From the NCBI GenBank assembly GCA_963717465.1, contig OY970340.1, positions 2,816,001 through 2,880,000 on the forward strand: 64,000 nt of DNA, read 5' to 3'. The translations under genes and the position numbers were made by a program. Positions 2,371 through 19,942 of the stretch are shown one piece after another (position 1 is the first letter of the stretch; the number at the start of each line of letters is the position of its first letter). Under the pieces are notes generated by a model. It was not told where the DNA came from, did not search any database, and saw only the letters and a list, made by a program, of their open reading frames with translations. The stretch is from Candidatus Bathyarchaeota archaeon. Lineage in GTDB: Archaea > Thermoproteota > Bathyarchaeia > Bathyarchaeales > Bathycorpusculaceae.

Positions 2371-3152
2371 TTAAAATAATTTTTCTATTCCTTTAAAATT
2401 CCAATCCTCGTTAGAGTATTTCTCCTTATATAGGACTTGAGCTGATTCCCACTCATTTATAGTTAGCTCTCCCCCACAAGTTTAATATTCAGAGTTCGCT
2501 CATAACTCTTTTTTAAAACGTCTTTGACTTCTTCCATTTCAATCTCTCTTCCAAGCTCTTTTCTTAGAGTAGTTACACAATGCTTGAAGCCTGTCAATTG
2601 ACCATATTCACCTTTTGGAGGTCTTAGAACTTTACTAAGCATCGACAAATCTACGTCAACCATTAAAGTTCCATGATGTAAAATTTTGCCCCACCGCAAA
2701 CGCTTCTGAGCGTTCCCTGAAATCTTCATTCCATTTACGAACACATGGTTTGGCGGGATTAACTTTGCAGCGAGCCCGAGACTTTGCAACCCCTCAATCA
2801 AGCCTCTGCAGAGAACTTCACAGGATTCTAGGAAATCATGTGGGATAAACGGATGACGATTCCCGTTTACAAATAGCGAGTAATTAAGATTTTTAATATC
2901 GTGATAAACTGCTCCTCCTCCTGAAGGCCTCCTTACGATTGCTATCTTATTCGCCTTGCACTCACGAACATATACGACTTTATTCACTTTTTCGTGATAC
3001 CCAAGGACAACTGCATTTCGGTTCGTCCAAAACCGAAAAGTATTAGGAACTTGATCAACTGCGTGAGCTTGTGAAATTGCCTCCTCGATCGCCAGGTTCA
3101 TGTATGGGTCATCTGGAATATCAACATCAAGCAGTCTCCATTCCTGCGCCAT
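2371..3152 (-). CDS. lplA: Lipoate-protein ligase A family; C-terminus frameshifted in a G-run near 2471
   Basis: RRPSGGGAVYHD, KISGNAQ and HHGT motifs; the shifted frame continues ELTINEWESAQVLYKEKYSNEDWNFKG. Confidence 0.9.
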
Positions 3153-4975: not shown

Positions 4976-6880
4976 CTATGTGTGAGAGAGTTTTTCGTTA
5001 AAATATTTTTTTACCGTTAGATATTTCTCAAGGTTTCTATGTGGCAAGTCGATGGAGTAGGCAAATTCTTTCTTGAAATTCTCTGCGACTGTAAGTTCTA
5101 AATATCCCGCTTGATTTGAAATTTTGCTCATCGTATCCCTAGCTTCTTTGGATATTAGTGCAGATTTAGCGCCGGACAAAGCTGTGTTGCCAACAAACTC
5201 AACCTTTTCTAACGGTATATCAGGTATAAGTCCGATGAAGAGCGCACTCTCAGCGCGAATATGACTTCCAAAAGCTCCAGCTATACAGAATCTATTTATG
5301 TCTGCATCATCGATATGCTTAGCCTTCATGAGAATTGAGGTGCCAGCATGCATTGCTGCTTTGGCCAATTGAACCTCCTTAATATCCCGTTGTGTTATCG
5401 TTATGTCATCGGCTATTCCTGTTTCATTGCTCCAAGCCACCACGAACTGCGGCTCTTCATCAATCATTTTTAATCTAGGAGTAGAAAGTTGCATAAATCG
5501 GCCCCTATTATCAATTATTTCTGCTTTGAGTAACTCAGCTATAAGATCAATAATACCTGACCCACAAATTCCAGTAGGGGAGTCACCGCCAATTGTCTCA
5601 TATTTAACTTCATATGTTTTAGGGTCAATGTGAACACTTTCGATAGCACCTGTATAGGCTTTCATTCCATGCTTTATGTGTGCTCCTTCGAATGCTGGTC
5701 CAGCTGCACAAGAGCAAGATAACAAGCCCATATTATCAGAAACAAAGACTTCACCATTAGTCCCAATATCTGCAACTATTTCCACAGCATTTGAGTTGAG
5801 AATTCCAGTTGAATAAACGTCTCCAATGGCATCAGCTCCCACGTATCCAGCTATGACAGGCAAAACATGAATATTTCCGCCCATGTTCATTTTTAATCCG
5901 GTTAATTCATTATTCTTCAACTCTCTTGATTGCTTTATTACCGGCGGAAATGGACTCAAGGACAGATATTTTGAATGTAATCCTAAAAAGAAATGATGCA
6001 TAACTGTGTTTCCAGTTACTGCTAATTCATATATGTAATTTGGATTAACTCCCGAATCATTACAAGCTTGCATTATAGTTGAATTTATACCTTTAATGGA
6101 TAACCTCTGCATCGTTCCCAGAGATTCATCGCTTTCCAAAGTAAAATCAAGCCGTGTAATTATGTCCTCTCCATAGACTATCTGCGGATTTTCAACTGAT
6201 CCTTCACCGACAGTTTTACCCGTTTTGAGGTCAACTAAATATCCAGCTATTTTGGAAGTACCTATATCGACTGCAAATCCGTACATTTGCCCAGTTGTAT
6301 CACCTGGTTCAACTGCGAGTATTTGCTCATCATTCCATACGGCTACTGTTGCACTCCAGTCAGCGTCTCTTAAAATACCGGATAGTATCTTCAAGAGATC
6401 ATTTCCAATACTAAGGTTTCTGTAATCACAAACTTCCCTTAAACAATCCAGAACTCTCTCAAAATCTGACCTTACATCTTGAAGTGTTGGTTTTGGAATA
6501 ACGATATGCAATTTCTTGACTAAAGGTTCTAGACTTACAGGTCTCTCAAGTCCAAGCACTTGTATCTTTCGCACATTAACTCTACTTTCTGGAGGAATTT
6601 CTACAACGAGATTTCCAAATATTTTAGTACAACAAGCCAGTCTGTATCCTTCATTGATTTTATCTTCTGAAAAATGTTCTCTCTCACCATTTGTAGCCTT
6701 ACTTACCATAGTTTGATCTCTTAGAATTATCGTGCATTTCCTGCAGTTGCCTTTTCCGCCACATTCTGACCGCAAGCCAACTCCTTTGCATTTGGCTGCT
6801 TCTAAAATTGTAATTCCAGGACCAACAGATACTTTTCGACCTTCTGGTTCAAATTGAATAATTACTTTTTTCTCCCCCAA
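4976..6880 (-). CDS. ASKHA-domain reductive activator of corrinoid proteins (RACo/AcsV-like) with N-terminal 2Fe-2S domain
   Basis: CGGKGNCRKC and RLAC 2Fe-2S motifs; DIGTS, DIGTNGE, AAGPAFEG, GICGSG, AGAFGS, GNTAL. Confidence 0.92.
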   Translation of the reverse strand: MGEKKVIIQFEPEGRKVSVGPGITILEAAKCKGVGLRSECGGKGNCRKCTIILRDQTMVSKATNGEREHFSEDKINEGYRLACCTKIFGNLVVEIPPESRVNVRKIQVLGLERPVSLEPLVKKLHIVIPKPTLQDVRSDFERVLDCLREVCDYRNLSIGNDLLKILSGILRDADWSATVAVWNDEQILAVEPGDTTGQMYGFAVDIGTSKIAGYLVDLKTGKTVGEGSVENPQIVYGEDIITRLDFTLESDESLGTMQRLSIKGINSTIMQACNDSGVNPNYIYELAVTGNTVMHHFFLGLHSKYLSLSPFPPVIKQSRELKNNELTGLKMNMGGNIHVLPVIAGYVGADAIGDVYSTGILNSNAVEIVADIGTNGEVFVSDNMGLLSCSCAAGPAFEGAHIKHGMKAYTGAIESVHIDPKTYEVKYETIGGDSPTGICGSGIIDLIAELLKAEIIDNRGRFMQLSTPRLKMIDEEPQFVVAWSNETGIADDITITQRDIKEVQLAKAAMHAGTSILMKAKHIDDADINRFCIAGAFGSHIRAESALFIGLIPDIPLEKVEFVGNTALSGAKSALISKEARDTMSKISNQAGYLELTVAENFKKEFAYSIDLPHRNLEKYLTVKKYFNEKLSHT

Positions 6881-6986: not shown

Positions 6987-8225
6987 TTATGTTGGGTACT
7001 TGCCTACTTTCTTGCTAGTCCTTGCAGTGAACTCTAAATCATTTAATTGCGTGAATTGATCTGGGACTATCGCATAGAAAGTCTTTTTAGCTTTGAGCAA
7101 CTCCTTGAAACATGCACCAAGATCTTTTTCGATTTCTTCTTTTTTGCCTTCTAAGATAATCTTCCAGTCAGAACACATTCCCGTAATCATGTCATAATCG
7201 GTTGCGCATTTTATACACCAGTCGTATGGTTGCTCAGCATCACCCGTGCCAGCAATGTCATTAATCGAACGATCGCATGCATAGGTCTTCATGAATTCGG
7301 TGTCACCAACAGGCGGCCAACCACCCGTATACCAAGCTATCTGTAATAGCCGTGATCCAACTGCCTTCTTCACTTGCTGCGCGTATGGAACCCAGAACTG
7401 TCGCACCTCTTCCAAGGTGTGACCCATGGGACAACCTCAGCTCATCATAAAGTCTTTTCCGTCTGGTCTAGTAAAATTGTTGCAAAATAGCGCTCTGTCT
7501 ATAACACTGGTTGTTGAAGCTTGCAAAACTTTGTGGGCAAACGTTGGGTTTTTTCTAATATCCTTTACCAGGGACTTCCAGCCCCTGATCCTAAAGCTAT
7601 TCATGTAGGGCTCTTCTCAGAACGATATAACAAACGGATAATAGTCACCGATAAGCTTATTTGCCATTTTTACATGCCATGAACTTGCCCACCAAATACC
7701 ATCTGAAGCAGGATTAGGCATATTATCTATGAATGTCTGTAGATCCTCCTCTTCGTGGCCAGCCCTGATAAAGTGTTCAACCTCCATTGGCGCCGCATCA
7801 GGAAACATAGTCCATGTCCTAGTAAGTTGGTCCTCAGCATATGTATGTGCATATGTGCCGAAATAAAGGTCGTCTTCGAAGTGTACTGACCATGTCATTG
7901 CTGCAATAAGCGCTAACTGTGGATACTGCATTAAATCCGAACCATGCAACGCACCACTGAATAAGTCTAAAGCATGCGCGTTAGTATTTGGAAATTGACC
8001 TAGAAAACTTGGGACTCTGTCGTGCGGTTCTCCCTTGGTCATTGCTAGCCATCTTTCCATAGGTGTAAATTTCCCGTTCTTCGGAATCTCATGTAGCTTT
8101 TCTGCTAGCCTCTCAATCATTCGCTCCTCAGGTGCAGTAATAGCGAAATTATAGTTTGGCCCCATATTATTGTAGTCAGGCAACATTCCCGAAACTTCTT
8201 TAGGATTTAATTTCAAACCTGGCAT
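6987..8225 (-). CDS. URO-D/MtaA-fold protein, 412 aa, with two in-frame TGA codons (putative Sec203 and Sec263)
   Basis: ORFs 7617-8225 and 6987-7427 share a frame and are joined by an open segment interrupted only by TGA at 7617-7619 and 7437-7439; URO-D-family features FTPMERW..GEPHDRVP, RGWKSLVKDIRKNPTFAHKVL, EEVRQFWVPY. Confidence 0.8.
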
Positions 8226-8244
8226 TTCTCATTTCACCTCCTCT

Positions 8245-8982
8245 TTATTTTTTGGCTCGTTCTTCTTTTAGGATTCTCATTAGTTCTTCGGTCTTCTTCA
8301 AGCCGTCGAGTGCGTCTAAACCAAATGCCCATCCGCGATGTTGACAGTATTCCTCTGTCATGCCCCAGCCTCCGCCTATCAGCTTCACATTATCTAAAAT
8401 GCCCCTTTCCTTTAGCCCTTCTTTGATGGGTTCTATCTGAGCTTTAGCGGCACCTAAACAAGCTGAAGCTGCCACTATATCTGCATTCGCAGCTGCATCA
8501 ACAAATTTTTTTGCTGGAACATTAACACCGAGATCGTTGACTGCAAAACCAGCACTCTGAAACATTGCAATAACTATATTCTTGCCTATGTCATGAACAT
8601 CTCCTTCAACAGTTCCAATTATGACATTTCCAGTTCCAGACTTTCCAGCTTTTATGAGCGGTTTAACTACCTCCATTACGCTTGAAGCTGCATCAGCTGC
8701 CAAAATAAGGTCCGCTGTCATGTATACACCATGACCTGCAGCGAATAGTTCACCAACAGCCCGCAAACCAGGAGTCAAACCTTTCAGCAGTATTTCAGGC
8801 GCTTCTACGTTAGCGTCTAGCAGAGCCTTGACAGCTTTCACCGCAGCCGTATCGTTACATTCGATAATTGCAAGTGCTACATCAAGAAACTTTGGTTCAA
8901 CTGTGCGCTTAATGTCTGCTATAACCTCCTCTTTCGATTTCGACTTCATATCCCATATTTTCTCTCTACCTTCAAATGTCAT
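8245..8982 (-). CDS. Corrinoid (B12-binding) methyl-carrier protein, MtaC/MttC family
   Basis: B12-cap domain plus EGDVHDIGKNIV (DxHxxG), DLGVNVP and GG motifs. Confidence 0.95.
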   Translation of the reverse strand: MTFEGREKIWDMKSKSKEEVIADIKRTVEPKFLDVALAIIECNDTAAVKAVKALLDANVEAPEILLKGLTPGLRAVGELFAAGHGVYMTADLILAADAASSVMEVVKPLIKAGKSGTGNVIIGTVEGDVHDIGKNIVIAMFQSAGFAVNDLGVNVPAKKFVDAAANADIVAASACLGAAKAQIEPIKEGLKERGILDNVKLIGGGWGMTEEYCQHRGWAFGLDALDGLKKTEELMRILKEERAKK

Positions 8983-9074
8983 ACACTTATTCTCCGCGAC
9001 AAAGCATGCACGCACTTTTTGCTTAATCTTTAATGCTTAGTGAGTGCACTTTCAAAAAAAACTTGTTTTTCCAG

Positions 9075-9216: not shown

Positions 9217-9766
9217 TTAGCGAGTGTGCTTTGAAGGAAATGATTCTGGAACCCTATACAATTTAATTACATGAACACGAAGTAAGGATCGTGTATTTGG
9301 CGGATTTGAAACAAGCTCTAATCCAACCGCTTTCCAACCGACTAATGTTGTATCGTGTGTGACTATGCGCGTTCCAGACCTCAACTCTTTTACTAACTTC
9401 GGACCAAGCTCGTTTGCTAGTATAGAATTCAGAAATAAAATTATTACATTAGCCTTTGAAACGTTATGCTTAAAGAAGTCACCATGAATGAATTTAATTT
9501 TGCCATCTAATCTAGCCCTCCGAAACCCTCTTCTTTGATAACTCAAAGAGATCTTCTTCTTTTTCGATTCCAACAGCATTTGCTCCGAAAGCCTTCGCTG
9601 CAACTAACAAAGTTGTTCCGTTGCCCGAACCCAAGTCATAGACGACTTCATTGGATTTGATTTCGGCGATTTCCAACATCTTTCTAACAACTGACTCAGG
9701 TGTGAAAATAGAGCATGGGTATTTTCCGAGTACTTGGTCCGATGTGTCCGTAACGTTTGCCTCCAC
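9217..9766 (-). CDS. Class I SAM-dependent methyltransferase, split by a frameshift near 9524
   Basis: VVYDLGSGNG and GIE in one frame; IHGDFF...KELRSGTRIVTH in the next. Confidence 0.85.
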
Positions 9767-9852: not shown

Positions 9853-10311
9853 CTAGAAGAATTGTTCTTTTTCTTCATATTGCTCTTTGAACCAAGCCAG
9901 CGCTGGTTCACCCTTTAGAAGATTTTTAACTTCGGCGTCGAGGTTTGACGGCTTAATTAGCAGCATCCAATATTTTCCATAAGGATCCGTTTGAATAAGT
10001 CTTACGCCTGGAGGTTTAGTTGTATCCCAATTAACTTCTACGATTGAACCAGAAACAGGAGCAATCAGATCTTCTACTACTTTTTTGGACATCAGCACAC
10101 CCATCTTTTTTCCTTGCTCTACATTTTCGCCCTCGGCTGGAAGTGTTACTTTGTATATACCAGTAATGTATGCTTTCTTACCCGCAGAAGCTCTTGCAAA
10201 GATTTCGTCAATTCCGACTCTCACCTTCCCGTCCGCCTCTACTTTTACCCACATGTGTTCTTTCGTGTAGTATATTTCTTCTTTAAAGTCTACTTTTCCG
10301 AGCTTAACCAT
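9853..10311 (-). CDS. Glycine cleavage H-like lipoyl-carrier protein
   Basis: YYTKEHMWVK, VRVGID, MSKKVVEDLIAPVSGSIVEVN (Lys at the lipoyl position), DPYG..W. Confidence 0.9.
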   Translation of the reverse strand: MVKLGKVDFKEEIYYTKEHMWVKVEADGKVRVGIDEIFARASAGKKAYITGIYKVTLPAEGENVEQGKKMGVLMSKKVVEDLIAPVSGSIVEVNWDTTKPPGVRLIQTDPYGKYWMLLIKPSNLDAEVKNLLKGEPALAWFKEQYEEKEQFF

Positions 10312-10673: not shown

Positions 10674-10901
10674 ATTTTCACCAATATCAAATTTTTCTTA
10701 ATGCATAATAGGCGCATGAGCTAAATCGATATTTTTCCAGGATTTTTTCTGGTTACTGGCAACGCCATTATCGTTACATTCAATTGAGTTACTATGAACC
10801 ATCCTCATCTTCGGGTGTGTCAATATCAGATTTTTCAATGTTTGTCGTCCTTTCTGCTTAATTAGCGCACGCTACCATTCGAGAAAAATATTTCATTCGA
10901 A

Positions 10902-10950
10902 ATTTAAGTTCTCGCTTAAAATTTAACAGAGAAATGATAAGTTCCATTCA
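10902..10950 (-). promoter_or_regulatory. Second-type promoter upstream of SCP2-gcvH
   Basis: Same 15-mer as 9075-9089. Confidence 0.6.
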
Positions 10951-11362
10951 GAAACAAGGTTTTTATCAAAATATTGTTCACAAGCTGTGATTAGTCTGAA
11001 AAATAATTTAAACCAATATACAATATCGCTTGTCAATACTAAATATAATTTTGCGCATACGCACAAAATACTGCATAGCAAAATTCAAAGATTAAAACTA
11101 AAAACCTTTGAATAAACTTCAATTTTTCATTTTCATCAATTTACGAAGAAGCCTCAAATAAATTCGATTCATTTGATTGAAAAAACGAAAAATTTTTGAT
11201 TTTTACTCGCCCGAGTTTTGAGAATACGCTCTATTAGTCATCTCTGGCGCACTATTCCACTTATCATGCAATTCGGATACGAATTAGCACACATGCTTAG
11301 CTTTTGCATTTCGTTATGCAAAATTATTCACGAGTTTAGGTTCAAACGGTTGTGAGTTCTTT

Positions 11363-13555
11363 TTAAATATTCAATTTTTTATAGCGCGCTATTAAAATTT
11401 CTTCGCTTTCTTTGACCACTTCTTCAAATTCAACTATAACGTCTCCTCCACCAGTGCCCGCGTACGCTTTAATTAAACCCTTAACATTTGACTTAGAAAA
11501 AACCTGTTTTCCAACGAATCTGGAAGCACTTCCATCATTATTGAAGAACCCATTTACAATGTAAGTTTTGTTTTCCAGTTTTGATTTTACATTGCCAGAT
11601 TTTGTTTTATTCAACATAAATTGATGTTCAGAATTTAATTCAGTAACTATGCCTGCGCCAATCAGTCTAAAATCCTTAGAATCAAGCCTGTTGTTGAATA
11701 AAAGGACAGTGCCGCCTATTTCCACTGGAACTGGCATCTTGAACTTAATATAAGCCATACATGTTTCTCCTGCTCTAACCGACGGTTTTAATACAAATTT
11801 GTCATTTTCGATGACGTATGGAAATAAGGTGGCAGGTACCTCGAAAAGTCCAACGAACGCGTTTATTTTGCTTTTTGGAATAATCGTGTGCCAGTACCAT
11901 CTTTCCATATTTAGTTCTATAAGCACTCGGTTTGTAGATTTAATCGAGCTAGGTGCGCAAGCTACGAAACCCTGATGAGCATTCTCGGGTCTAACATTTT
12001 TGAAAGCCAACCCAACTCTGTCTCCAGCCGTGGCTTCCTCTGCATCCTCTCCAAAATTCCATAAGGATTGCACATGTCCGTATTCGCCATTTGGCTGAAT
12101 CTCAACTATATCCTTAAGTTTGACTTTTCCTCGTTGAATTGTTCCGGTTAAAACTGTACCGATGCCAGCGACTATAAGCGAATGATCGATAGGCATCTTA
12201 AACTGCCCCGTCAATTGCTTAATAGCGGGTTTAACCGATGCCTGTATTTCATTCTTTAACTCCTCGATGCCATCTCTTTTTACACTTGACACGTTAACTA
12301 TCTTGGCATTCTCATATCTTGTTCCTTTTAGCATTAATGTGATTTTCTTTCTCACTTCTTCTACTCTTTCCGGAGAAGCTGCATCGATCTTACTCAACAC
12401 AACAACAAGTTTGTCGATTCCCAGATTTTTAATAACGGAAAAGTGTTCAACGCTCTGAATTTGCAGACCTAAATCAGCTGCAACAACCAGAATAGCCATG
12501 TCGGTCATGTTCGCTCCTACAACTGCATGTTTTATCAAATTATAATTCCCGGGCATTTCAACCAAAGTAATGGCATTCTTATTTAACCTAAATGGGTAAA
12601 ATTCCATGTCAAAAAGTCTGCTAAGCGGAGCTGTATATGATTTGTCGAGAGCAGAAATTGATGATTTACCTGTTAACTGCCGAGCAAGCATAGTTTTTCC
12701 ATGTTTGCAATGTCCGAATAGTCCCACGTGGAATTCTGGACCCATTTCTTTAGTATTTGAAATATCAAATTCGGTGGCAATCTTGTTAGCTTGTTCAAGG
12801 AATTCTCTAATAACAATATCTGCTTGTAAGCCTTCTATCAGTGCTTTCTTGATGGTTTCGTTTCTTAGAATAGGAAGAGAAATAGCTAAGTCAGCATTTT
12901 TATATCGCGTCGCGACTTCCGCCATTATCTTTCTGGTTTCGCGTTCAATTTTTCTAATCTTCAGCTTTTTTTCATCCTCGATAATGTTAATCGGTTTACT
13001 CCTTATTGGGCTTGCCAACCCTTCAAGCACTGCCTTTACAATGATGCCTGCAATTTGCTCTAAATCTTGTTTGCTAGGGTCTATAACTGCTATTGGTTTA
13101 TCCCACCTAAATTCGCCGCCTGGGCGATCAAATTTTTGGTTGATTTCTTCAATGATTGACGACGCGATAGGTACACTTCGTTCCTTGTTCCATTTAATTG
13201 CAACTTCAAGAGAGGTATCTACGAGCACAATATTGTAGTCTGCGTTGGCTTTTCTTGCGATTCCCCGCAGTGTTCGCCTCATTGATTTAAAATAGTTTGA
13301 ATCATCGTTTATTACTAGAAAACCTTTTTCTAGGGCTAACTCAACGGTATTAACAAAAACAGCTTTAACTGAGGTTTCTCTTTCAGGCTTAAATCCCTGG
13401 TAAGAAAAAGAAGCCATTTTCTTAAAATCTTCTGAACTGATAATAATTGTTGAAATGTTATGTTTAGTCTCAAGAATCTCGGCAACTTTTTTTGCAATTG
13501 TTGTTTTGCCTGAAGAGGGTAATCCGCATATAACAAGCAGATACGGATAGCCCAT
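11363..13555 (-). CDS. pstK-selB: Fusion of O-phosphoseryl-tRNA(Sec) kinase (PSTK, N-terminal) and Sec-specific elongation factor SelB (C-terminal)
   Basis: N-terminus GLPSSGKT, DDSNYFKSMRR, WNKER, KFDRPG..RWDKP (PSTK/KTI12 family); C-terminus VGLFGHCKHGKT..SISALDK, MPIDHS..GIGTVLTGT, GDRVGL, RLD..FRLIGAG (archaeal SelB); adjacent to a tRNA with UCA anticodon. Confidence 0.88.
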   Translation of the reverse strand: MGYPYLLVICGLPSSGKTTIAKKVAEILETKHNISTIIISSEDFKKMASFSYQGFKPERETSVKAVFVNTVELALEKGFLVINDDSNYFKSMRRTLRGIARKANADYNIVLVDTSLEVAIKWNKERSVPIASSIIEEINQKFDRPGGEFRWDKPIAVIDPSKQDLEQIAGIIVKAVLEGLASPIRSKPINIIEDEKKLKIRKIERETRKIMAEVATRYKNADLAISLPILRNETIKKALIEGLQADIVIREFLEQANKIATEFDISNTKEMGPEFHVGLFGHCKHGKTMLARQLTGKSSISALDKSYTAPLSRLFDMEFYPFRLNKNAITLVEMPGNYNLIKHAVVGANMTDMAILVVAADLGLQIQSVEHFSVIKNLGIDKLVVVLSKIDAASPERVEEVRKKITLMLKGTRYENAKIVNVSSVKRDGIEELKNEIQASVKPAIKQLTGQFKMPIDHSLIVAGIGTVLTGTIQRGKVKLKDIVEIQPNGEYGHVQSLWNFGEDAEEATAGDRVGLAFKNVRPENAHQGFVACAPSSIKSTNRVLIELNMERWYWHTIIPKSKINAFVGLFEVPATLFPYVIENDKFVLKPSVRAGETCMAYIKFKMPVPVEIGGTVLLFNNRLDSKDFRLIGAGIVTELNSEHQFMLNKTKSGNVKSKLENKTYIVNGFFNNDGSASRFVGKQVFSKSNVKGLIKAYAGTGGGDVIVEFEEVVKESEEILIARYKKLNI

Positions 13556-13633
13556 TAACGAAGCACCTGGCTTTCTTGCGATAAATCAGCAAAACAGCGA
13601 ATATTGCAAAAACGCTTGAGTGCGAGAGCGAAA

Positions 13634-13725
13634 TGGCGGCTCCCAAGGGGAATCGAACCCCGAGACCTTACCAGACTCATCGGATTTGAAGTCCGATGCC
13701 AGGACCACCTTAGCTGTAGGAAGCC
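13634..13725 (-). tRNA. selC: tRNA-Sec (anticodon UCA)
   Basis: 92 nt; 9-bp acceptor (one U-U), 4-bp T-stem GGGG/CCCC with TTCGATT loop, long D-stem with 4-nt loop, 6-bp anticodon stem ATCGGA/TCCGAT, loop CTTCAAA, long variable arm, discriminator G, encoded CCA. Confidence 0.93.
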
Positions 13726-13755
13726 ATAAGCTTTCCTTCATGCATGTCATCAATA

Positions 13756-14298
13756 TCATCCTATCGGCATTTTTGCAAATTCTGAGAGCATGTGCTTGGG
13801 ATACTCGTTATGTTGAGTTCTAAACAACCAATCTTTTTTGGCTAAGTCGTAGTCCCAGACCTTAATTCCTCTTCGGAAGCGTCTTTCAAAGCGGATCCAC
13901 ATGTACCTGTTTAACTTTTCACTTGCATCTATTTGACTTCTGGAAGGGGCAGAGTCTAAAATTATTTGCCCAGTTTTCATTTGACTAAAAACTTTGCATC
14001 CTGTTGAAAATTTTTCGGATTCATAAGGAAAGGCTTGGCATATCAAAGGTCTTTTGCTATATATCAGGCAATCATTTTTATCGTCTACATAAGGACAAAT
14101 AACCGTGTTCAATTGATAGAAAATAATTACATCGGGTTTGCTCATTCCAATTGCAACAGAAGGAGAAACAATATCTCTTGGAAATAGTTTGACTTCTTTC
14201 TCTGTAATAACCAGCCCCTTTTTGACGCCTCTAATGTCTTCCCAAAGATTTCGACAACAGGTACCACATTTCTTGCATTGAAATACTTTGCTCATCAC
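13756..14298 (-). CDS. YkgJ/FliB-family cysteine-cluster protein
   Basis: FQCKKCGTCC...CPY...C.IY..RPLICQAFPY. Confidence 0.85.
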   Translation of the reverse strand: MMSKVFQCKKCGTCCRNLWEDIRGVKKGLVITEKEVKLFPRDIVSPSVAIGMSKPDVIIFYQLNTVICPYVDDKNDCLIYSKRPLICQAFPYESEKFSTGCKVFSQMKTGQIILDSAPSRSQIDASEKLNRYMWIRFERRFRRGIKVWDYDLAKKDWLFRTQHNEYPKHMLSEFAKMPIG

Positions 14299-14324: not shown

Positions 14325-15212
14325 CTAGCTAACTTTTTTTATGACTGGTGTCACATCCACTTGATGGTATTCAAAGCCAAGTTCTTTTATTGGAAACCCC
14401 ATCGCAATGCCTAACAGTTGCTGGTAGTAAAGTACAGGCATGTTCAGGTTTTCGCCAAACTTTTCGTTTATGTAGGGTTGTATTACATCGTATTGATAGA
14501 AACAGGATGGACAAAGAAGTACAATGCAATCCGCTCCAGCTTGTTGAATTTGTACTAGTTTTTCTCTGGCCATGCTCAAGGCTGAGTTCTCATCAGCACT
14601 GGCAATCCCAGCTCCACAACAAAGCAATTTCGATTTATACTGAACAGTTTCCGCTCCGGTAGCCTCAGTTATTCTATCCAAAATCAAAGGTTTTTTTGAA
14701 TTATCAACACACAAAAGTTCGCTAGGTCTAAGAATATGGCAACCGTAATGGACTGCGACTTTTAAGCCATTTAATGGTTTAATCACGCTGTCTTTAATCT
14801 TATCAGCGCCGATATCCTCTGAAAAAACTTGGAGGACGTGCTTAATTTCAATATTACCCTTGAATTCCTTCCCTACTGAAGATAATATATTGTTTGCTTG
14901 CCTCCTAAGTTTTTCATGTTTCTTTAAATTAGTGTTTGTAGTCTTTAATGTTTCAAAGCAACCGTTACATACAGTCAATATATCTGTCCCCATGCTCTCA
15001 GCTATACAGATGTTTCTTGCAGCAAGTGAGAGATATGTCGTATAATCTATAGAAGGAATACTGAACGGGTTTGGACAACATCCAGCACCTTTTAGAGGCA
15101 ATAGCTCCACTCCAAACTTGCTCATTTGTTTTCTAGTTATGGCCTCCACGCAAATATGAGGAAGTGTAGATGACATCAAACATCCAGGGAAGAACGCATA
15201 CTTAGATGCCAC
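14325..15212 (-). CDS. hdrB: Heterodisulfide reductase subunit B
   Basis: Two CCG domains: FPGC, GCCP, CNGC, HYGCH, CCGAG, CPSC. Confidence 0.93.
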   Translation of the reverse strand: MASKYAFFPGCLMSSTLPHICVEAITRKQMSKFGVELLPLKGAGCCPNPFSIPSIDYTTYLSLAARNICIAESMGTDILTVCNGCFETLKTTNTNLKKHEKLRRQANNILSSVGKEFKGNIEIKHVLQVFSEDIGADKIKDSVIKPLNGLKVAVHYGCHILRPSELLCVDNSKKPLILDRITEATGAETVQYKSKLLCCGAGIASADENSALSMAREKLVQIQQAGADCIVLLCPSCFYQYDVIQPYINEKFGENLNMPVLYYQQLLGIAMGFPIKELGFEYHQVDVTPVIKKVS

Positions 15213-15214
15213 AA

Positions 15215-15736
15215 TTAACCCTCCTTTATTTCATAGCCGACAAGTCGATCAAACCCAGTGGTCCTCAAAATCTTTCGAATTTCCACTACATTGGGAGTTA
15301 GAGGCTCTGGTAAACACAATTCAGACCGTATTTTCATTGTTGCAGGGGATGGTTTTACTATAAGACCACTTTCAATTAGAGTAACTGCCTCAGCCTTTGG
15401 ACCATCAGGAATGTTCTTTAAAGATTTAACTGCTCTATTCTTAAACGCTTCAAGAATAGTTGGCACATCGACTTTTTTTGGGCACCCCTCTGAACAATTA
15501 TAACACGACATACAGAACCAAATTTTTTCGTTTTTTATCGTCAGCTTTTCGAAACCTAAATATGCGTCCTCAAGAAATTTTGTGGGATTAAACCCTTCAA
15601 TTAACTTAGCTGAAGGACAACCACGTGTACAAGCTCCACATTTGCTGCATAAGATCAGTGTTTCTCCTCCAGGAAATTTATCTAAATACAATTTAAATTC
15701 TGGATTGATCTTCTTTACGATTTCTTCCTTGACCAT
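15215..15736 (-). CDS. hdrC: Heterodisulfide reductase subunit C
   Basis: Two CxxCxxCxxxCP motifs; directly upstream of hdrB. Confidence 0.9.
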   Translation of the reverse strand: MVKEEIVKKINPEFKLYLDKFPGGETLILCSKCGACTRGCPSAKLIEGFNPTKFLEDAYLGFEKLTIKNEKIWFCMSCYNCSEGCPKKVDVPTILEAFKNRAVKSLKNIPDGPKAEAVTLIESGLIVKPSPATMKIRSELCLPEPLTPNVVEIRKILRTTGFDRLVGYEIKEG

Positions 15737-15798
15737 AATATTCCTCAAGCAATTATAGCAATCTTAAACTAACGCGCTATAACATGCCTTTCAAAGAA

Positions 15799-16281: not shown

Positions 16282-17272
16282 TTATTCTCGCGGTGTTGCG
16301 CGTACTTTTATGACCTCCATTGTGGACCAACTCTTGACAGGCTTAGGACCCCCGCCCTCGGATACAATTCCGTGTAACCAATCAATCGCCATAGAAACTG
16401 CTCCTCCAGCTGCATTATATTGGCCTTCATATTTGAAGGTACGACCTCCAAATTTTAGGGTAGCAGCTTGCGGTTTACTGTTGTAATCTTTCTTAGCCCA
16501 TTCAACGGAAGCCTTTACATCATCGTTAATAGCAATTATTGGACGCTCACCTTGGCGGTGGAATGTTGCCAAAGCAAAATTTCCCGCACCTAGCATTGCA
16601 TTTCCACTCTCCCAGCGTCCATCGCTTAGGATTGAACCCCATACAAACCAATAATGCTCAAGGAGAGCTATCTTGGAGAAAAAGGAGCTTAACCAGGGTA
16701 AGCAGTACATACGATCGAGCCCGCCATAACCTCCGGTAATCTTGCTTCCGTTAATGCTGCCTGCCACAGTGCACCCAGAACTTGTATAGCCTACATCGTC
16801 AGGTAATCCTGGAACATAAATTGTTGTTACATTTTGTGGTAGAGGGGTTAATACCACGTCAATGTAATTATTGTCCTCTTTCCACAGATATTGCTTAGGA
16901 CCAAGAGAGATCTCAAGGCTGTGATTCAAAGCAAAGCTAGTCTGGACTAGCTGTATGGACCCCATCATTGTTTTGCCACATGATCGCACCCCAGTACAAA
17001 TCATTTTCGCCAGGAAATTTCACTGCTGCGGGATCAGCCCATATGTCCTTTGGACATTCAATGACCATGAAATCGAAAGCAACATTTTTCGTGAAAGCTC
17101 GATATAACTCATAACGTTTACCATCTTCCGTATCAGCCATAGCATAAATAAACGAAGAATCGTTGTAAATCCCTGGAAACTGTGAGTCGTGCGAAGAATA
17201 ATCTTGTAAACTTGCATCCGATAAATGTACATAGGGGATTATATTTATTTTGGATGTATCAAAAATAGCCAT
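16282..17272 (-). CDS. Hypothetical protein (~330 aa) split by a frameshift near 16960
   Basis: Overlapping ORFs 16937-17272 and 16282-17004; RBS AGGTGA; aromatic/Gly-rich; no family recognised. Confidence 0.7.
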
Positions 17273-18787: not shown

Positions 18788-19918
18788 TCAAGGGATTATT
18801 TCGCACCCGTTATACTTGATGTAATTAAAATCGCTTAAACTGACTTTGCCTTTTCTTATCAAATTCTTGATCCGTGGAATTTGTTCTGTCACGTCATCTA
18901 CGAGAGATTTAACCGTGCAACAGACGTCCGAGTATGCTTTGTTGTCCCATCTTTGCGTTAGATTTGTGTATAGGCATCTGCCGCCGCAGACGTTAAGAAT
19001 TGCGCATTTACTGCATGGAGGCTGATTAACAAACACTTTCTTTAGCTTAAGCGGATCAGCGTTGCCTATGTGACCTAAATAATGGTCTTTCATCCCCCAC
19101 ATTGTTGGACAAGCAATAATGTAACCGTCTGTTTGAATAGCATAGTTTATCCAGCCGCCGCCACAACGTAACAAGCATTCTTTTTCATCGTTTAAAAGCG
19201 AGTTCGCAATGCCAAGTATGGGGTAAAGCTTCAACACAACGCCTTTCTGCTCTATCATGTCCACCCAGAAACCAACGAGCTTTTTTACTCCCGGCATGTA
19301 GCTTTTCTCTGTCCAATCCTTAAAATTTCGTTTTGCGTAATCGTTTGACCAAAAACCTGCGTTCAGCTGCCAATGAACCGAGGAAAACTTGAACTCCTCA
19401 TTCTCAAACAGCCATCTGATTTGCGTGTGGATGTCTGTTTGCTCCATCACAGTCATTCGTGCAATCAATTCACCCATAAAACCATTCTTTCTAACCAGCT
19501 TCAGGTTATCGATGACTTTGCGAAAAGTGCCCTTACCTCGGTAATAATCCGTTAAAGCCTCATCACCGTCGATGGAGACAAGCATAGTGTGGAAGCGGTC
19601 TACATACTCTGGCTCCAACTTGTCAAGCAGCAAACCGTTAGTTTGAATCATAAAATGCTTAGGCTTAACACAATCCATAATCCGCTTAATCTCAGAAATG
19701 CACATTAAGGGTTCGCCGCCGTAAAAAGTCACCACGCAATCTGGGTCCCTGCGGCAGAAATTCGCGAGCAAATCTAAATCATAATTGATCTTTTTAGGTA
19801 AAGAGTAATCTACTTCAATTTGGTCGCCAAAATCCTCGTCAAAATCATCAAGGCTCTCGCCAAAACAGTACCTACACTGCAAATTGCACTGCGACGTCAG
19901 GATCACATGAAAGAACAT
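18788..19918 (-). CDS. Radical SAM/SPASM-domain protein (TIGR04084-like)
   Basis: CNLQCRYC, YGGEPL, SPASM cysteines CSKC..LNVCGGRC, C-terminal GCEIIP. Confidence 0.9.
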   Translation of the reverse strand: MFFHVILTSQCNLQCRYCFGESLDDFDEDFGDQIEVDYSLPKKINYDLDLLANFCRRDPDCVVTFYGGEPLMCISEIKRIMDCVKPKHFMIQTNGLLLDKLEPEYVDRFHTMLVSIDGDEALTDYYRGKGTFRKVIDNLKLVRKNGFMGELIARMTVMEQTDIHTQIRWLFENEEFKFSSVHWQLNAGFWSNDYAKRNFKDWTEKSYMPGVKKLVGFWVDMIEQKGVVLKLYPILGIANSLLNDEKECLLRCGGGWINYAIQTDGYIIACPTMWGMKDHYLGHIGNADPLKLKKVFVNQPPCSKCAILNVCGGRCLYTNLTQRWDNKAYSDVCCTVKSLVDDVTEQIPRIKNLIRKGKVSLSDFNYIKYNGCEIIP

Positions 19919-19942
19919 GCGTAAAATGTACATAATGCTTGT

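What the first reader, a model, noticed from the sequence alone, without database searches (positions are those of the whole stretch)
11363..13555. PSTK-SelB single-polypeptide fusion whose GTPase motifs are degenerate
Seen: an uninterrupted 730-aa frame. G1 reads GHCKHGKT (normally GHIDHGKT), the switch-I RGITID motif is replaced by RLFDMEF, and G3 reads EMPGN (normally DxPGH, so the catalytic His is lost). The PSTK motifs look intact. Inference: either the fusion channels tRNA-Sec from kinase to elongation factor, or the SelB part is a GTPase-dead tRNA-binding scaffold and a canonical SelB exists elsewhere.
Basis: partly seen in the sequence, partly recalled or inferred. Interest (0 to 1): 0.75.

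Follow-up and report, generated by a model that had tools for sequence, protein, structure and literature searches.

The report
GTPase-disabled second PSTK-SelB copy
This archaeon carries a normal selenocysteine kinase/elongation-factor fusion elsewhere and, here, a fast-evolving second copy next to a second selenocysteine tRNA gene, in which the GTP-hydrolysis machinery has been replaced while the rest looks intact.

Summary
Window 11363..13555 (-) is one 730-aa frame: PSTK kinase + archaeal SelB (G domain, domains II-IV). It reads GHCKHGKT, has no switch-I Thr, EMPGN and SKID.

The fusion itself is not new. It was published for Bathyarchaeota and one Archaeoglobus (PMC8762117).

What is new is the copy:
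- The genome holds a second, canonical fusion (GHVDHGKT/RGMTLD/DLPGH/NKID, 54% identical) just downstream of a Sec-containing selD.
- It also holds two tRNA-Sec genes. One sits by SepSecS, the other 82 nt upstream of this gene.
- Of 87 aligned fusions, only this one has multi-motif changes.
- No closer relative than 59% identity was found in the protein, genome or metagenome searches.

The frame is kept by selection: 0 of 300 neutral simulations stayed stop-free, and dS is saturated at dN 0.35. Excess divergence is concentrated in the P-loop-to-switch-II segment and domain II. The kinase core, Sec pocket and domain IV are kept.

Best reading (about 0.5): a hydrolysis-deficient tRNA-Sec kinase/holder, recapitulating how aSelBL arose. 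Rivals are a decaying duplicate or a non-canonical elongation factor. No reads or RNA data were available. It is a new variant of a known kind, of moderate interest.

The parts
11363..13555 (-). Whole ORF of the degenerate PSTK-aSelB paralogue (730 aa + stop), protein P0001
12776..13555 (-). PSTK part (about residues 1-260). Holds P-loop G11-LPSSGKT-18, E42 at the Walker-B Asp position, D84-D85-x-N87-Y88, W122 and R126
   Evidence: Pfam KTI12 6-221. Matches M. jannaschii PSTK 3A4L at E 7e-32. Residue roles are from PMC2275090. Conservation
12221..12739 (-). G domain (residues 273-445) with altered nucleotide-switch machinery
   Evidence: 13 of 40 family-invariant columns are lost, all within residues 283-350
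12692..12715 (-). G1/P-loop GHCKHGKT (residues 281-288); Val to Cys and Asp to Lys
12599..12625 (-). Switch I remnant LSRL-FDMEF (residues 311-319). The Thr is missing; the Phe319 'lid' is kept
   Evidence: Phe51 lid of M. maripaludis aSelB from PMC3037878 section 6, mapped
12545..12559 (-). G3 EMPGN (residues 333-337); Asp to Glu, catalytic His to Asn
12383..12394 (-). G4 SKID (residues 388-391)
   Evidence: Thr at this position occurs in 8 of the 87 aligned fusions (P0080-P0081, P0085, P0087-P0089 and others read TKxD)
11936..12220 (-). Domain II (residues 446-540). Aminoacyl pocket D457, H458 and R513 are kept. R446K, W448L, F460L, K491E, R496Q and R528Q are changed
11366..11935 (-). Domains III and IV (residues 541-730). 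Domain IV is conserved as well as in the canonical paralogue
   Evidence: Pfam aSelB_III and RIBIOP_C. The alignment to 4AC9 runs to residue 726. Divergence ratio for domain IV is 1.07
13638..13725 (-). Second tRNA-Sec gene (anticodon TCA), 82 nt upstream of the ORF's ATG
   Evidence: ARAGORN. Rfam RF01852, 61.8 bits. Compared with the other copy

Best explanation
SHOWN. This gene is a paralogue of the organism's own canonical PSTK-aSelB fusion.
- It has been kept as an open frame by selection.
- It has evolved more than twice as fast as the canonical copy.
- The excess change is concentrated in the P-loop-to-switch-II half of the G domain and in domain II.
- Every residue class needed for gamma-phosphate/Mg sensing and ribosome-triggered GTP hydrolysis is replaced: P-loop Val-Asp, switch-I Thr, G3 Asp, catalytic His.
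- The kinase core, the aminoacyl (Sec) pocket with its Phe lid, G4/G5 and domains III-IV are retained.
- It sits directly behind a second tRNA-Sec gene. That tRNA's stem substitutions all preserve base pairing.

INFERRED mechanism. The protein still binds tRNA-Sec, probably the neighbouring isodecoder. It phosphorylates Ser-tRNA-Sec and holds the (Sep/Sec)-tRNA in an EF-like grip. It cannot run the GTP-hydrolysis-dependent release step on the ribosome. It would therefore act as a non-hydrolysing kinase/carrier: a buffer, chaperone or regulator of the charged tRNA-Sec pool. Ribosomal delivery would be done by the canonical fusion encoded next to selD. In evolutionary terms it repeats, in a young and still domain-complete form, the route proposed for the ancient aSelB-like (aSelBL) family.
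For: Canonical machinery elsewhere in the genome:
- A canonical paralogue, 54% identical over the full length, lies just downstream of a Sec-containing selD (HGUSCK).
- There is a single SepSecS, next to tRNA-Sec copy 1.
- There are two tRNA-Sec genes.

Uniqueness of the motif changes:
- This is 1 of 87 aligned fusions with multi-motif changes.
- The 5 further fusion-type representatives P0126-P0130 raised no flag in the G1/G3 regex.
- 8 of 8 metagenome relatives and 11 of 12 genome loci are canonical; the exception is G233 with NLPGH.

Targeted pattern of change:
- Family-invariant columns lost: G domain 13 of 40, all within residues 283-350 (13 of 31, against 0 of 9 in residues 351-445). Elsewhere 5 of 43 are lost. 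Fisher p = 0.03 and 0.02.
- Divergence from the family consensus, relative to the canonical copy: 4.4x in residues 273-350, 3.0x in domain II, 1.27x in the kinase core, 1.07x in domain IV.

Selection:
- dN is 0.35 against the canonical copy, with dS saturated.
- 0 of 300 neutral simulations stayed stop-free at 25, 35 or 46% amino-acid divergence.

Retained binding features:
- Sec-pocket residues D457, H458 and R513, and the lid F319, are kept.
- The AF2 model has mean pLDDT 82.4 with all domains folded. Foldseek's best hit is M. maripaludis aSelB (TM 0.80-0.84). It fits GTP-form EF-Tu (TM about 0.78) better than GDP-form (about 0.47).

tRNA copy 2:
- G4:C69 became U:A, a compensated double change.
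- U5:A68 became U.G.
- A variable-arm C-G became U.G.
- G73 is kept.

Origin: a tree holding this protein with the canonical trio (P0002, P0005, P0037) is 10.2 lnL units better than the free quick-search tree (p-AU 0.67). Both tRNA copies share a GGTAAGG variable arm that 4 aligned relatives lack.

Precedent: aSelBL is an aSelB duplicate with a disrupted GTPase and a kept aminoacyl pocket (PMC3037878, abstract and section 6 read).
Against: - No biochemical, expression or read data exist; no run was listed.
- The protein is a singleton. No orthologue was found in the 5.8-billion-cluster protein search (best 55-57% identity), in 41 + 201 related genomes (best 59%, over residues 3-546 in G204), or in the metagenome scan (52-55%). 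Conservation of the odd residues therefore cannot be tested, and a copy on its way to loss is not excluded.
- The Walker-B Asp of the kinase is Glu here. D41A inactivates M. jannaschii PSTK (PMC2275090), and D-to-E is untested.
- Domain II has lost several basic residues (K491E, R496Q, R528Q), which could weaken tRNA binding as well as ribosome binding.
- tRNA copy 2 has an extra A that bulges the D-stem and scores 10 bits lower than copy 1 (61.8 against 71.8).
- P-loop GKT and a G4 Ser (Thr is tolerated in relatives) mean nucleotide binding may persist. An Asn at the His position plus a P-loop Lys could support some hydrolysis.
- The assembly shows apparent frameshifts in neighbouring genes and is 88% 'complete' as a single contig. 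Indel errors cannot, however, create these substitutions.
Confidence: 0.5

Rival explanations
1. Redundant duplicate under relaxed selection. After duplication of a tRNA-Sec + PSTK-aSelB module, the canonical copy covers all functions. This copy, and perhaps its tRNA, is drifting towards loss. The G domain simply degraded first, and the gene has little or no function today.
For: - It is a singleton with the longest in-group branch: 0.58 in FastTree and 0.89 in IQ-TREE, against 0.08 for the canonical copy.
- It was not found in any other genome or metagenome searched.
- There are changes at otherwise invariant kinase and domain II positions.
- The tRNA copy has a bulged D-stem.
- Neighbouring genes are not conserved in the genus: 1 of 40 other genomes.
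Against: - 0 of 300 neutral simulations kept the frame open, even at 25% divergence.
- dS is saturated while dN is 0.35.
- Losses are clustered in one functional segment, while the kinase core and domain IV diverge no faster than in the canonical copy.
- All three tRNA stem changes, involving four substituted bases, preserve pairing.
- A TATA-like TTTAT and a GGTG lie upstream of the ATG (weak evidence).
Confidence: 0.22
2. Still an elongation factor, with non-canonical GTPase chemistry. It would be dedicated to the neighbouring tRNA-Sec isodecoder. Lys284 would stand in for the monovalent cation normally held by the P-loop Asp, and Asn337 would position the water. This would give a second Sec-insertion channel, for example for particular mRNAs such as the nearby gene with two in-frame TGA codons.
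For: - P-loop GKT, G4 (S/T)KxD, G5, the Sec pocket and domains II-IV are retained.
- The gene is paired with its own tRNA-Sec, which carries acceptor-stem changes unique among the aligned copies with a readable stem.
- A URO-D-like ORF 3 kb away has two in-frame TGA codons aligned to Cys in a paralogue.
- Translational GTPases are K+-dependent, and Arg/Lys fingers replace K+ in other P-loop families (PMC6310460, passages read).
Against: - Five separate elements of the catalytic and switch apparatus are changed at once: Val to Cys, Asp to Lys, Thr lost, Asp to Glu, His to Asn.
- Domain II lost conserved basic residues.
- The role of the P-loop Asp in cation binding is recalled from Kuhle & Ficner 2014, which could not be read.
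Confidence: 0.15
3. Horizontally acquired divergent module, or an assembly or consensus artefact, rather than an in-lineage paralogue.
For: - The free trees place the protein outside the canonical trio, near the base of the clade.
- Fusion genes move between genera: the G233 (same genus) copy is 91% identical to the G144 (other genus) copy but only 71% to this genome's canonical copy.
- The Sec trait is patchy: 12 of 201 family genomes.
Against: - The constrained tree with the trio is better by 10.2 lnL (p-AU 0.67).
- The two tRNA copies share a lineage-specific variable arm.
- GC content matches the surroundings.
- No integrase or transposase domain was found among the 49 larger window ORFs scanned.
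- An artefact would not give 46% coherent, frame-preserving divergence.
Confidence: 0.08

Closest known systems
PSTK-aSelB fusion proteins of Bathyarchaeota and one Archaeoglobus (Mukai et al. 2022, Front Genet, PMC8762117; reviewed in PMC9499178)
   Same: - Same single-ORF architecture, PSTK + aSelB domains I-IV, at about 730 aa.
- 52-57% identity to about 77 database members.
- A tRNA-Sec gene lies upstream on the same strand, as in relatives: 1.4-3.4 kb upstream in 5 genomes, and directly upstream in G173.
   Different: - It is the only member seen with altered G1, switch I, G3 and G4.
- It is a second copy in a genome that also has a canonical one.
- The published rationale, shielding Sep-tRNA-Sec from SepCysS, does not apply here. 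No SepRS or SepCysS above cut-off was found in this genome.
- The passages read mention no degenerate paralogue. The paper's supplements were not looked at.
aSelBL (SelB-like, 'EF-Pyl', M. mazei MM1309; Atkinson et al. 2011, PMC3037878; PDB 3WNB)
   Same: - It derives from aSelB by duplication.
- The GTPase motifs are disrupted, including loss of the G3 His.
- Aminoacyl-pocket residues (Asp191, His192, Arg247) and the Phe/Tyr lid are retained.
- It is proposed to bind aa-tRNA without acting as a classical GTPase.
   Different: - aSelBL lacks domain IV and has no PSTK. It often has P-loop deletions, and it is ancient and widespread.
- This protein keeps domain IV, the PSTK and a full-length P-loop, and is lineage-specific.
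- The genome separately encodes a true aSelBL (323 aa, G000:C1:2951707-2952678; best PDB hit 3WNB at E 5e-31).
Methanococcus maripaludis aSelB (PDB 4AC9/4ACB)
   Same: - Sequence match at E 4e-57 over residues 275-726.
- The model superposes with TM 0.80-0.84.
- The Sec pocket and domain IV are present.
   Different: - 4AC9 reads GHIDHGKT / RGITID / DAPGH; here the motifs are GHCKHGKT / SRL-FD / EMPGN.
- This protein has an N-terminal kinase.
Methanocaldococcus jannaschii PSTK (PDB 3A4L; Sherrer et al. 2008, PMC2275090)
   Same: - E 7e-32 over residues 2-258.
- P-loop Lys and Ser/Thr, DDxNY and the distal Arg of RxxxR are kept.
   Different: - The Walker-B Asp41 position is Glu in this copy.
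- The proximal Arg116 position is Trp in the whole fusion family.
Pseudo-GTPase paralogues of translational GTPases, such as yeast Ski7 versus Hbs1 (recalled from memory, not checked in any call)
   Same: A duplicate of a translational GTPase that keeps the fold and nucleotide pocket, lacks the catalytic His, and takes on a binding or adaptor role.
   Different: They belong to a different subfamily and domain of life. No tRNA-modifying enzyme is fused.

Membership tests
PSTK-aSelB fusion (Mukai et al. 2022) | PSTK and aSelB in one uninterrupted reading frame | tested here: met
   730-aa ORF with no stop. KTI12/PSTK at 6-221 and GTP_EFTU/D2/aSelB_III/RIBIOP_C at 277-728.
PSTK-aSelB fusion (Mukai et al. 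2022) | Full-length homology to other fusion proteins | tested here: met
   50-57% identity at about 73-100% coverage to P0003-P0079. It falls inside the 77-row clade, at 100* support.
Functional aSelB / translational GTPase | G1 GHxDHGK[ST] with the P-loop Val/Ile-Asp | tested here: not met
   GHCKHGKT.
Functional aSelB / translational GTPase | Switch-I RG[IM]T motif with the Mg/gamma-phosphate Thr | tested here: not met
   LSRL-FDMEF. The Thr position is a gap or Leu, depending on the aligner.
Functional aSelB / translational GTPase | G3 DxPGH with the catalytic His | tested here: not met
   EMPGN.
Functional aSelB / translational GTPase | G4 NKxD guanine-specificity motif | tested here: inconclusive
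   SKID. Relatives tolerate TKxD, so Ser may be compatible.
Functional aSelB / translational GTPase | Aminoacyl (Sec) pocket Asp-His...Arg and Phe lid (M. maripaludis D191, H192, R247, F51) | tested here: met
   D457, H458, R513 and F319, by the 4AC9 alignment with residue roles from PMC3037878.
Functional aSelB / translational GTPase | NCBIfam TIGR00475 selB score above the curated cut-off | tested here: not met
   199.4 bits against 242.25. The canonical paralogue scores 272.7.
Functional aSelB / translational GTPase | GTP binding, ribosome-stimulated hydrolysis, Sec-tRNA delivery | not testable with these tools
   Needs biochemistry.
[quoted passage not shown] | P-loop GxP(G/A)xGK(S/T) | tested here: met
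   G11-LPSSGKT-18, with Ser at the G/A position as in most of the fusion family.
[quoted passage not shown] | Invariant Walker-B Asp (M. jannaschii D41) | tested here: not met
   Glu42. Asp is present in at least 95% of 85 other fusions and in the canonical paralogue. The consequence of D-to-E is unknown.
[quoted passage not shown] | RxxxR motif, distal Arg (M. jannaschii R120) | tested here: met
   R126 is invariant. The proximal position is Trp122 in all aligned fusions.
[quoted passage not shown] | NCBIfam TIGR03574 score above the curated cut-off | tested here: not met
   130.2 bits against 290.5. The canonical paralogue is also below it, at 151.1 bits, so this reflects the family, not this copy.
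aSelBL (SelB-like) | Three-domain protein lacking the C-terminal domain IV | tested here: not met
   Domain IV is present and conserved. The protein is therefore not filed as aSelBL, though it may work like one.
tRNA-Sec (neighbouring gene) | Rfam RF01852 above gathering score, UCA anticodon, G73 | tested here: met
   61.8 bits against 47. Anticodon TCA. A G follows the acceptor stem.

The most novel reading that the evidence does not exclude
The second tRNA-Sec and the degenerate PSTK-aSelB form a co-diverged, partly orthogonal pair. The pair would work without the canonical GTPase cycle. One possibility is a separate Sec-insertion channel for particular messages, such as the nearby URO-D-like gene with two in-frame UGA codons. 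Another is a carrier that withholds Sep-/Sec-tRNA from the ribosome for regulation or for a non-ribosomal, tRNA-dependent use of selenocysteine.
Probability: 0.12. Interest if true: 0.8.

Novelty: new variant of a known kind. Interest (0 to 1): 0.5.

Why it matters
The PSTK-aSelB fusion is known only from sequence, and how archaeal SelB is coupled to Sec-tRNA synthesis and to the SECIS element remains unclear.

Here one genome carries both an intact fusion and a natural variant. In that variant the GTPase switch is selectively dismantled, while the kinase, the Sec pocket and domain IV are kept. It comes with its own tRNA-Sec copy.

- This gives a ready-made comparison pair for asking what the G domain contributes in the fusion.
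- It is a young, domain-complete analogue of the route proposed for the enigmatic aSelBL family. The same genome also has a true aSelBL.

Its weight is limited because it is so far a single-genome case, with no expression or biochemical data.

Tried and rejected
- Sequencing runs for window 11000-14000: none was listed and no RNA holder was listed. Neither the assembly nor expression could be checked.
- Genome-contig scan with the family alignment: it picked the generic patterns GHVDHGKT and GxGTV[LV]TGTI and returned mostly bacterial SelB/EF-Tu-type loci. It was of no use for this question.
- Homologue search for the two-TGA URO-D-like protein: no hit at E <= 1e-5.
- Synteny test with the YkgJ-like neighbour in the genus: only 1 of 40 other genomes has a match, at 38% identity, so no empty-site comparison was possible.
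- SECIS-like hairpins downstream of the URO-D-like ORF and of selD: folds were no better than shuffles, z = -1.08 and +1.15.
- The 690-bp gap downstream of the gene (10674-11362): AT-rich, with no ORF of 60 aa or more and no Rfam hit.
- Pairwise dN/dS: dS was saturated in every comparison involving this genome's copies and YN00 failed, so only dN and a bound are given.
- The 87-row mixture-model tree did not finish in time. FastTree on 87 rows and IQ-TREE on 27 rows were used instead.
- P0001 + P0002 as exclusive sisters: 36.3 lnL worse, p-AU 0.062. This is disfavoured but not formally rejected.
- Earlier-findings look-ups gave nothing.
- Cluster look-up gave no organism names. The genome's own taxon is not named by any search. 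Homologues are labelled Bathyarchaeota/Bathyarchaeia by their sources.
- Kuhle & Ficner 2014 could not be read.
- Complex prediction was not used, because no protein-protein binding claim is made.
Full report
**1. The observation**

Window 11363..13555 (minus strand) is one ATG-initiated frame of 730 codons with no stop.

- Pfam finds a KTI12/PSTK kinase at residues 6-221. It then finds GTP_EFTU (277-439), EF-Tu domain 2 (466-533), archaeal SelB domain III (543-640) and the Tsr1/Bms1-type C-terminal domain (584-728).
- NCBIfam's best models are selB (199.4 bits, cut-off 242.25) and the archaeal PSTK (130.2 bits, cut-off 290.5).
- Against solved structures, residues 275-726 align to Methanococcus maripaludis aSelB (4AC9, E 4e-57). 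Residues 2-258 align to Methanocaldococcus jannaschii PSTK (3A4L, E 7e-32).
In addition, G4 reads SKID.

**2. The fusion itself is known**

Two papers in the library mention it (search). Mukai et al. 2022 (PMC8762117; abstract, section 3.4.1-3.4.2 and discussion passages read) report PSTK and aSelB in one ORF in diverse Bathyarchaeota and one Archaeoglobus. They suggest the fusion shields Sep-tRNA-Sec from SepCysS. The review PMC9499178 repeats this. The passages I read mention neither a second copy nor degenerate GTPase motifs. I did not look at the supplements.

**3. What else the genome holds**

The window lies in a single 3.05-Mb contig.

- A second PSTK-aSelB fusion (732 aa, P0002) lies at C1:952742-954940. 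It has canonical GHVDHGKT, RRGMTLDMGF, DLPGH and NKID, and a selB score of 272.7 bits, above the cut-off.
- It follows directly on selD, which carries an in-frame TGA in the active-site motif (HGUSCK). The organism therefore very likely decodes UGA as Sec.
- There is one SepSecS gene, at 845784-847097.
- ARAGORN finds 38 tRNA genes, two of them tRNA-Sec. One is at 845695-845779, beside SepSecS. The other is at 2829638-2829723, which is window 13638-13723 and lies 82 nt upstream of the gene under study.
- No SepRS or SepCysS above cut-off was found, so the published rationale for the fusion does not obviously apply here.
- A separate 323-aa aSelB-like (aSelBL) gene also exists. Its best PDB hit is 3WNB at E 5e-31.

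**4. How unusual the substitutions are**

- The protein search returned 132 hits at E <= 1e-10. I aligned the 87 full-length (at least 680 aa) fusion-type proteins among P0001-P0089, dropping the two shorter pieces P0078 and P0079.
- In that alignment, 85 read GHVDHGKT (P0021 reads GHVDHPKT). 86 read D[LH]PGH. 86 have RGM[T/S] or RGIT. 85 have [NT]KxD (P0076 reads NKVA).
- Only the window protein departs in several motifs.
- The exhaustive representative search lists five more fusion-type representatives (P0126-P0130). None was flagged by the G1/G3 regex scan. That scan also flagged some non-fusion SelB-like proteins, which I did not verify.
- Eight of eight metagenome relatives are canonical. 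They were found with peptides specific to this protein.
- Eleven of twelve loci from related genomes are canonical. The exception is the same-genus genome G233, whose only fusion reads NLPGH.

**5. No orthologue**

- The best identities to the window protein are 55-57% in the protein database, up to 59% over residues 3-546 in related genomes (G204), and 52-55% in metagenomes. This is about the same as to its own genomic paralogue, at 54%.
- The fusion was found in 3 of 41 sampled relatives and in 12 of 201 genomes of the family, counts that include this genome.
- Only this genome has two separate genes. G204's two matches are adjacent pieces of one interrupted gene.

**6. Origin**

- FastTree puts the protein on a long branch (0.58) at the base of the 77-row clade, with a long-branch warning.
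- A mixture-model IQ-TREE tree of 27 rows moves it inward with weak support. Its end branch is 0.89, against 0.08 for the canonical copy.
- Holding it together with the canonical copy and that copy's two close relatives (P0005 at 90% identity, and P0037) gives a tree 10.2 lnL units better than the free quick search (p-AU 0.67).
- Exclusive sisterhood with the canonical copy alone is 36.3 units worse (p-AU 0.062).
- The two tRNA-Sec copies share a GGTAAGG variable arm. The four relatives aligned in the right orientation have GCAAGG instead; two further rows were entered in the wrong orientation and are ignored.
- The simplest reading is a duplication of a tRNA-Sec + fusion module within this lineage, probably before the split of the three canonical relatives. 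Horizontal acquisition is not excluded.
- No integrase or transposase domain was found among the 49 larger ORFs of the window that I scanned. The surroundings are housekeeping genes.

**7. Selection and pattern of change**

- dN is 0.35 to the canonical copy and 0.34-0.37 to six relatives. The canonical copy is 0.21-0.23 from those relatives. dS is saturated throughout. This implies a rate more than twice as fast on this branch, and an overall dN/dS well below 1.
- In neutral simulations starting from the canonical gene, 0 of 300 replicates stayed free of stops at 25, 35 or 46% amino-acid divergence. Mean stop counts were 10.6, 14.6 and 18.5.
- Of 83 columns invariant in the 85 other fusions, the protein loses 13 of 40 in the G domain and 5 of 43 elsewhere (Fisher p = 0.03).
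- All 13 G-domain losses lie in residues 283-350: 13 of 31 there, against 0 of 9 in residues 351-445 (p = 0.02). The canonical copy loses none.
- The lost positions are V283C, D284K, E296G, T300I, A301S, P307Y, R312S, G313R, G318E, S320Y, D333E, H337N and I350M.
- Divergence from the family consensus, relative to the canonical copy, by segment:

| Segment | Ratio |
|---|---|
| G domain, 273-350 | 4.4 |
| Domain II | 3.0 |
| Kinase C-terminal part | 1.8 |
| Domain III | 1.5 |
| G domain, 351-445 | 1.45 |
| Kinase core | 1.27 |
| Domain IV | 1.07 |

**8. What is kept**

- The alignment to 4AC9 maps the M. maripaludis pocket residues Asp191, His192 and Arg247, and the Phe51 lid (roles from PMC3037878 section 6), to D457, H458, R513 and F319. 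All are present.
- In the kinase, the P-loop Lys17/Thr18, DDxNY and the distal Arg (R126, equivalent to M. jannaschii R120) are kept. The Walker-B Asp41 position is Glu42.
- Sherrer et al. (PMC2275090; abstract and passages read) showed that K17A, S18A, D41A and R120A abolish complementation.
- The AF2 model (37-row alignment; mean pLDDT 82.4, pTM 0.60) folds all domains. Low confidence is confined to the linkers and to switch I, residues 301-314.
- Foldseek ranks M. maripaludis aSelB first (TM 0.80-0.84). GTP-form EF-Tu fits better (about 0.78) than GDP-form (about 0.47).

**9. The neighbouring tRNA**

Copy 2 differs from copy 1 at six positions:

- G4:C69 became U4:A69, which accounts for two changes and is compensatory.
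- A68 became G, giving U5.G68.
- An extra A lies in the 5' strand of the D-stem.
- A variable-arm C became U, turning C-G into U.G.
- A T-loop A became G, which is the state seen in three relatives.

The acceptor stem GGCGUCC/GGACGCC is identical in copy 1 and in the five other aligned copies with a readable stem. Copy 2 keeps G2:C71, C3:G70 and G73. The pair-preserving changes argue for a working tRNA. The D-stem bulge and the 10-bit lower Rfam score (61.8 against 71.8) argue for some change or decay.

**10. Interpretation**

The residues replaced are exactly those that, by established knowledge of translational GTPases, carry out the GTPase cycle:

- they sense the gamma-phosphate and Mg (switch-I Thr, G3 Asp);
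- they gate and perform ribosome-triggered hydrolysis (P-loop Val, catalytic His; PMC3037878 section 6);
- they hold the monovalent cation (P-loop Asp; recalled from Kuhle & Ficner 2014, not read; K+ dependence of the class is in PMC6310460).

I therefore take the protein to be hydrolysis-deficient. Because the kinase core, the aminoacyl pocket and domain IV are constrained as in canonical copies, I think it most likely still binds and phosphorylates Ser-tRNA-Sec and holds the charged tRNA. It would act as carrier, buffer or regulator, while the canonical fusion delivers Sec-tRNA to the ribosome (confidence about 0.5).

The rivals are:

- a redundant copy drifting to loss (0.22);
- a still-working elongation factor with unusual chemistry, dedicated to tRNA-Sec copy 2 (0.15);
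- foreign origin or artefact (0.08).

None can be settled without reads, expression data and assays.

**11. Comparison and novelty**

It is a member of the published PSTK-aSelB fusion family by architecture and homology. It fails three of the four sequence hallmarks of a working translational GTPase. It is not an aSelBL, because it has domain IV, a kinase and a full P-loop. It does resemble what Atkinson et al. proposed for aSelBL's origin: duplication of aSelB, a change of role, and decay of the GTPase. I rate it a new variant of a known kind. It is interesting mainly as a natural separation-of-function pair within one genome. Its weight is limited by being a single-genome case.

Noticed in passing
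window 6987..8237 (-): A URO-D/MtaA-like ORF (weak Pfam URO-D hit, E 0.008) is continuous only if two internal TGA codons are read through (U207, U267). Both align with Cys (C199, C255) in a 23%-identical paralogue near tRNA-Sec copy 1 (L028:981-2186). It is a candidate selenoprotein with two Sec residues. It sits next to a corrinoid protein (8245..9015) and a RACo activase (4976..6880).
   Followed up: partly
G000:C1:951661-952683 (L029:7661-8683), outside the window: selD carries an in-frame TGA in its active-site motif (HGUSCKLP). It lies directly upstream of the canonical PSTK-aSelB fusion.
   Followed up: yes
G000:C1:2951707-2952678 (L005:1495-2466, -), outside the window: A 323-aa aSelB-like (aSelBL) protein with a shortened P-loop region; its best PDB hit is 3WNB ('EF-Pyl'). 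A 180-aa P-loop kinase-like ORF lies next to it on the other strand. The genome therefore has three SelB-family genes.
   Followed up: partly
window 9217..9766 (-) and 16282..17272 (-): Two places where neighbouring ORFs overlap in different frames, as if one gene were frameshifted: a methyltransferase (9512..9766 + 9217..9603), and an unknown protein (16937..17272 + 16282..17004). Together with 88% 'completeness' for a single-contig genome, this hints at indel errors in the assembly or at real pseudogenes.
   Followed up: no
window 2463..3152, 9853..10311, 14325..15748, 18788..19933 (all -): HdrC-like and HdrB-like (CCG domain) genes, a GcvH-like lipoyl-carrier protein, a lipoate-protein ligase (LplA/B) and a radical-SAM gene lie close together. 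From memory, this set is reminiscent of sulfur-oxidising Hdr-like/LbpA systems. That comparison was not tested.
   Followed up: no
L016 (G233:C5:821671-823851): The only PSTK-aSelB fusion of a same-genus genome reads NLPGH instead of DLPGH in G3. It is 91% identical to the copy of a genome from another genus (G144), but only 71% to this genome's canonical copy. This suggests the Sec gene set moves between lineages. The trait is patchy, in 12 of 201 family genomes.
   Followed up: partly
L022/L027 (G204:C14:57124-59297): The fusion gene of G204 is interrupted (1 TAA) and matches as two adjacent pieces. This recalls the split PSTK/aSelB reported for some Sifarchaeia.
   Followed up: no
G000:C1:904785-904882 (-), outside the window: ARAGORN reports a 98-nt tRNA-like gene with an undetermined four-base anticodon (ccgg). 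It may be an intron-containing tRNA.
   Followed up: no
L019:1248-1331 and loci L030-L034: In relatives, the single tRNA-Sec gene sits on the same strand upstream of the fusion gene: directly upstream in G173, and 1.4-3.4 kb upstream in five others. In this genome the canonical fusion has lost that neighbour. tRNA-Sec copy 1 is 106 kb away, beside SepSecS.
   Followed up: partly
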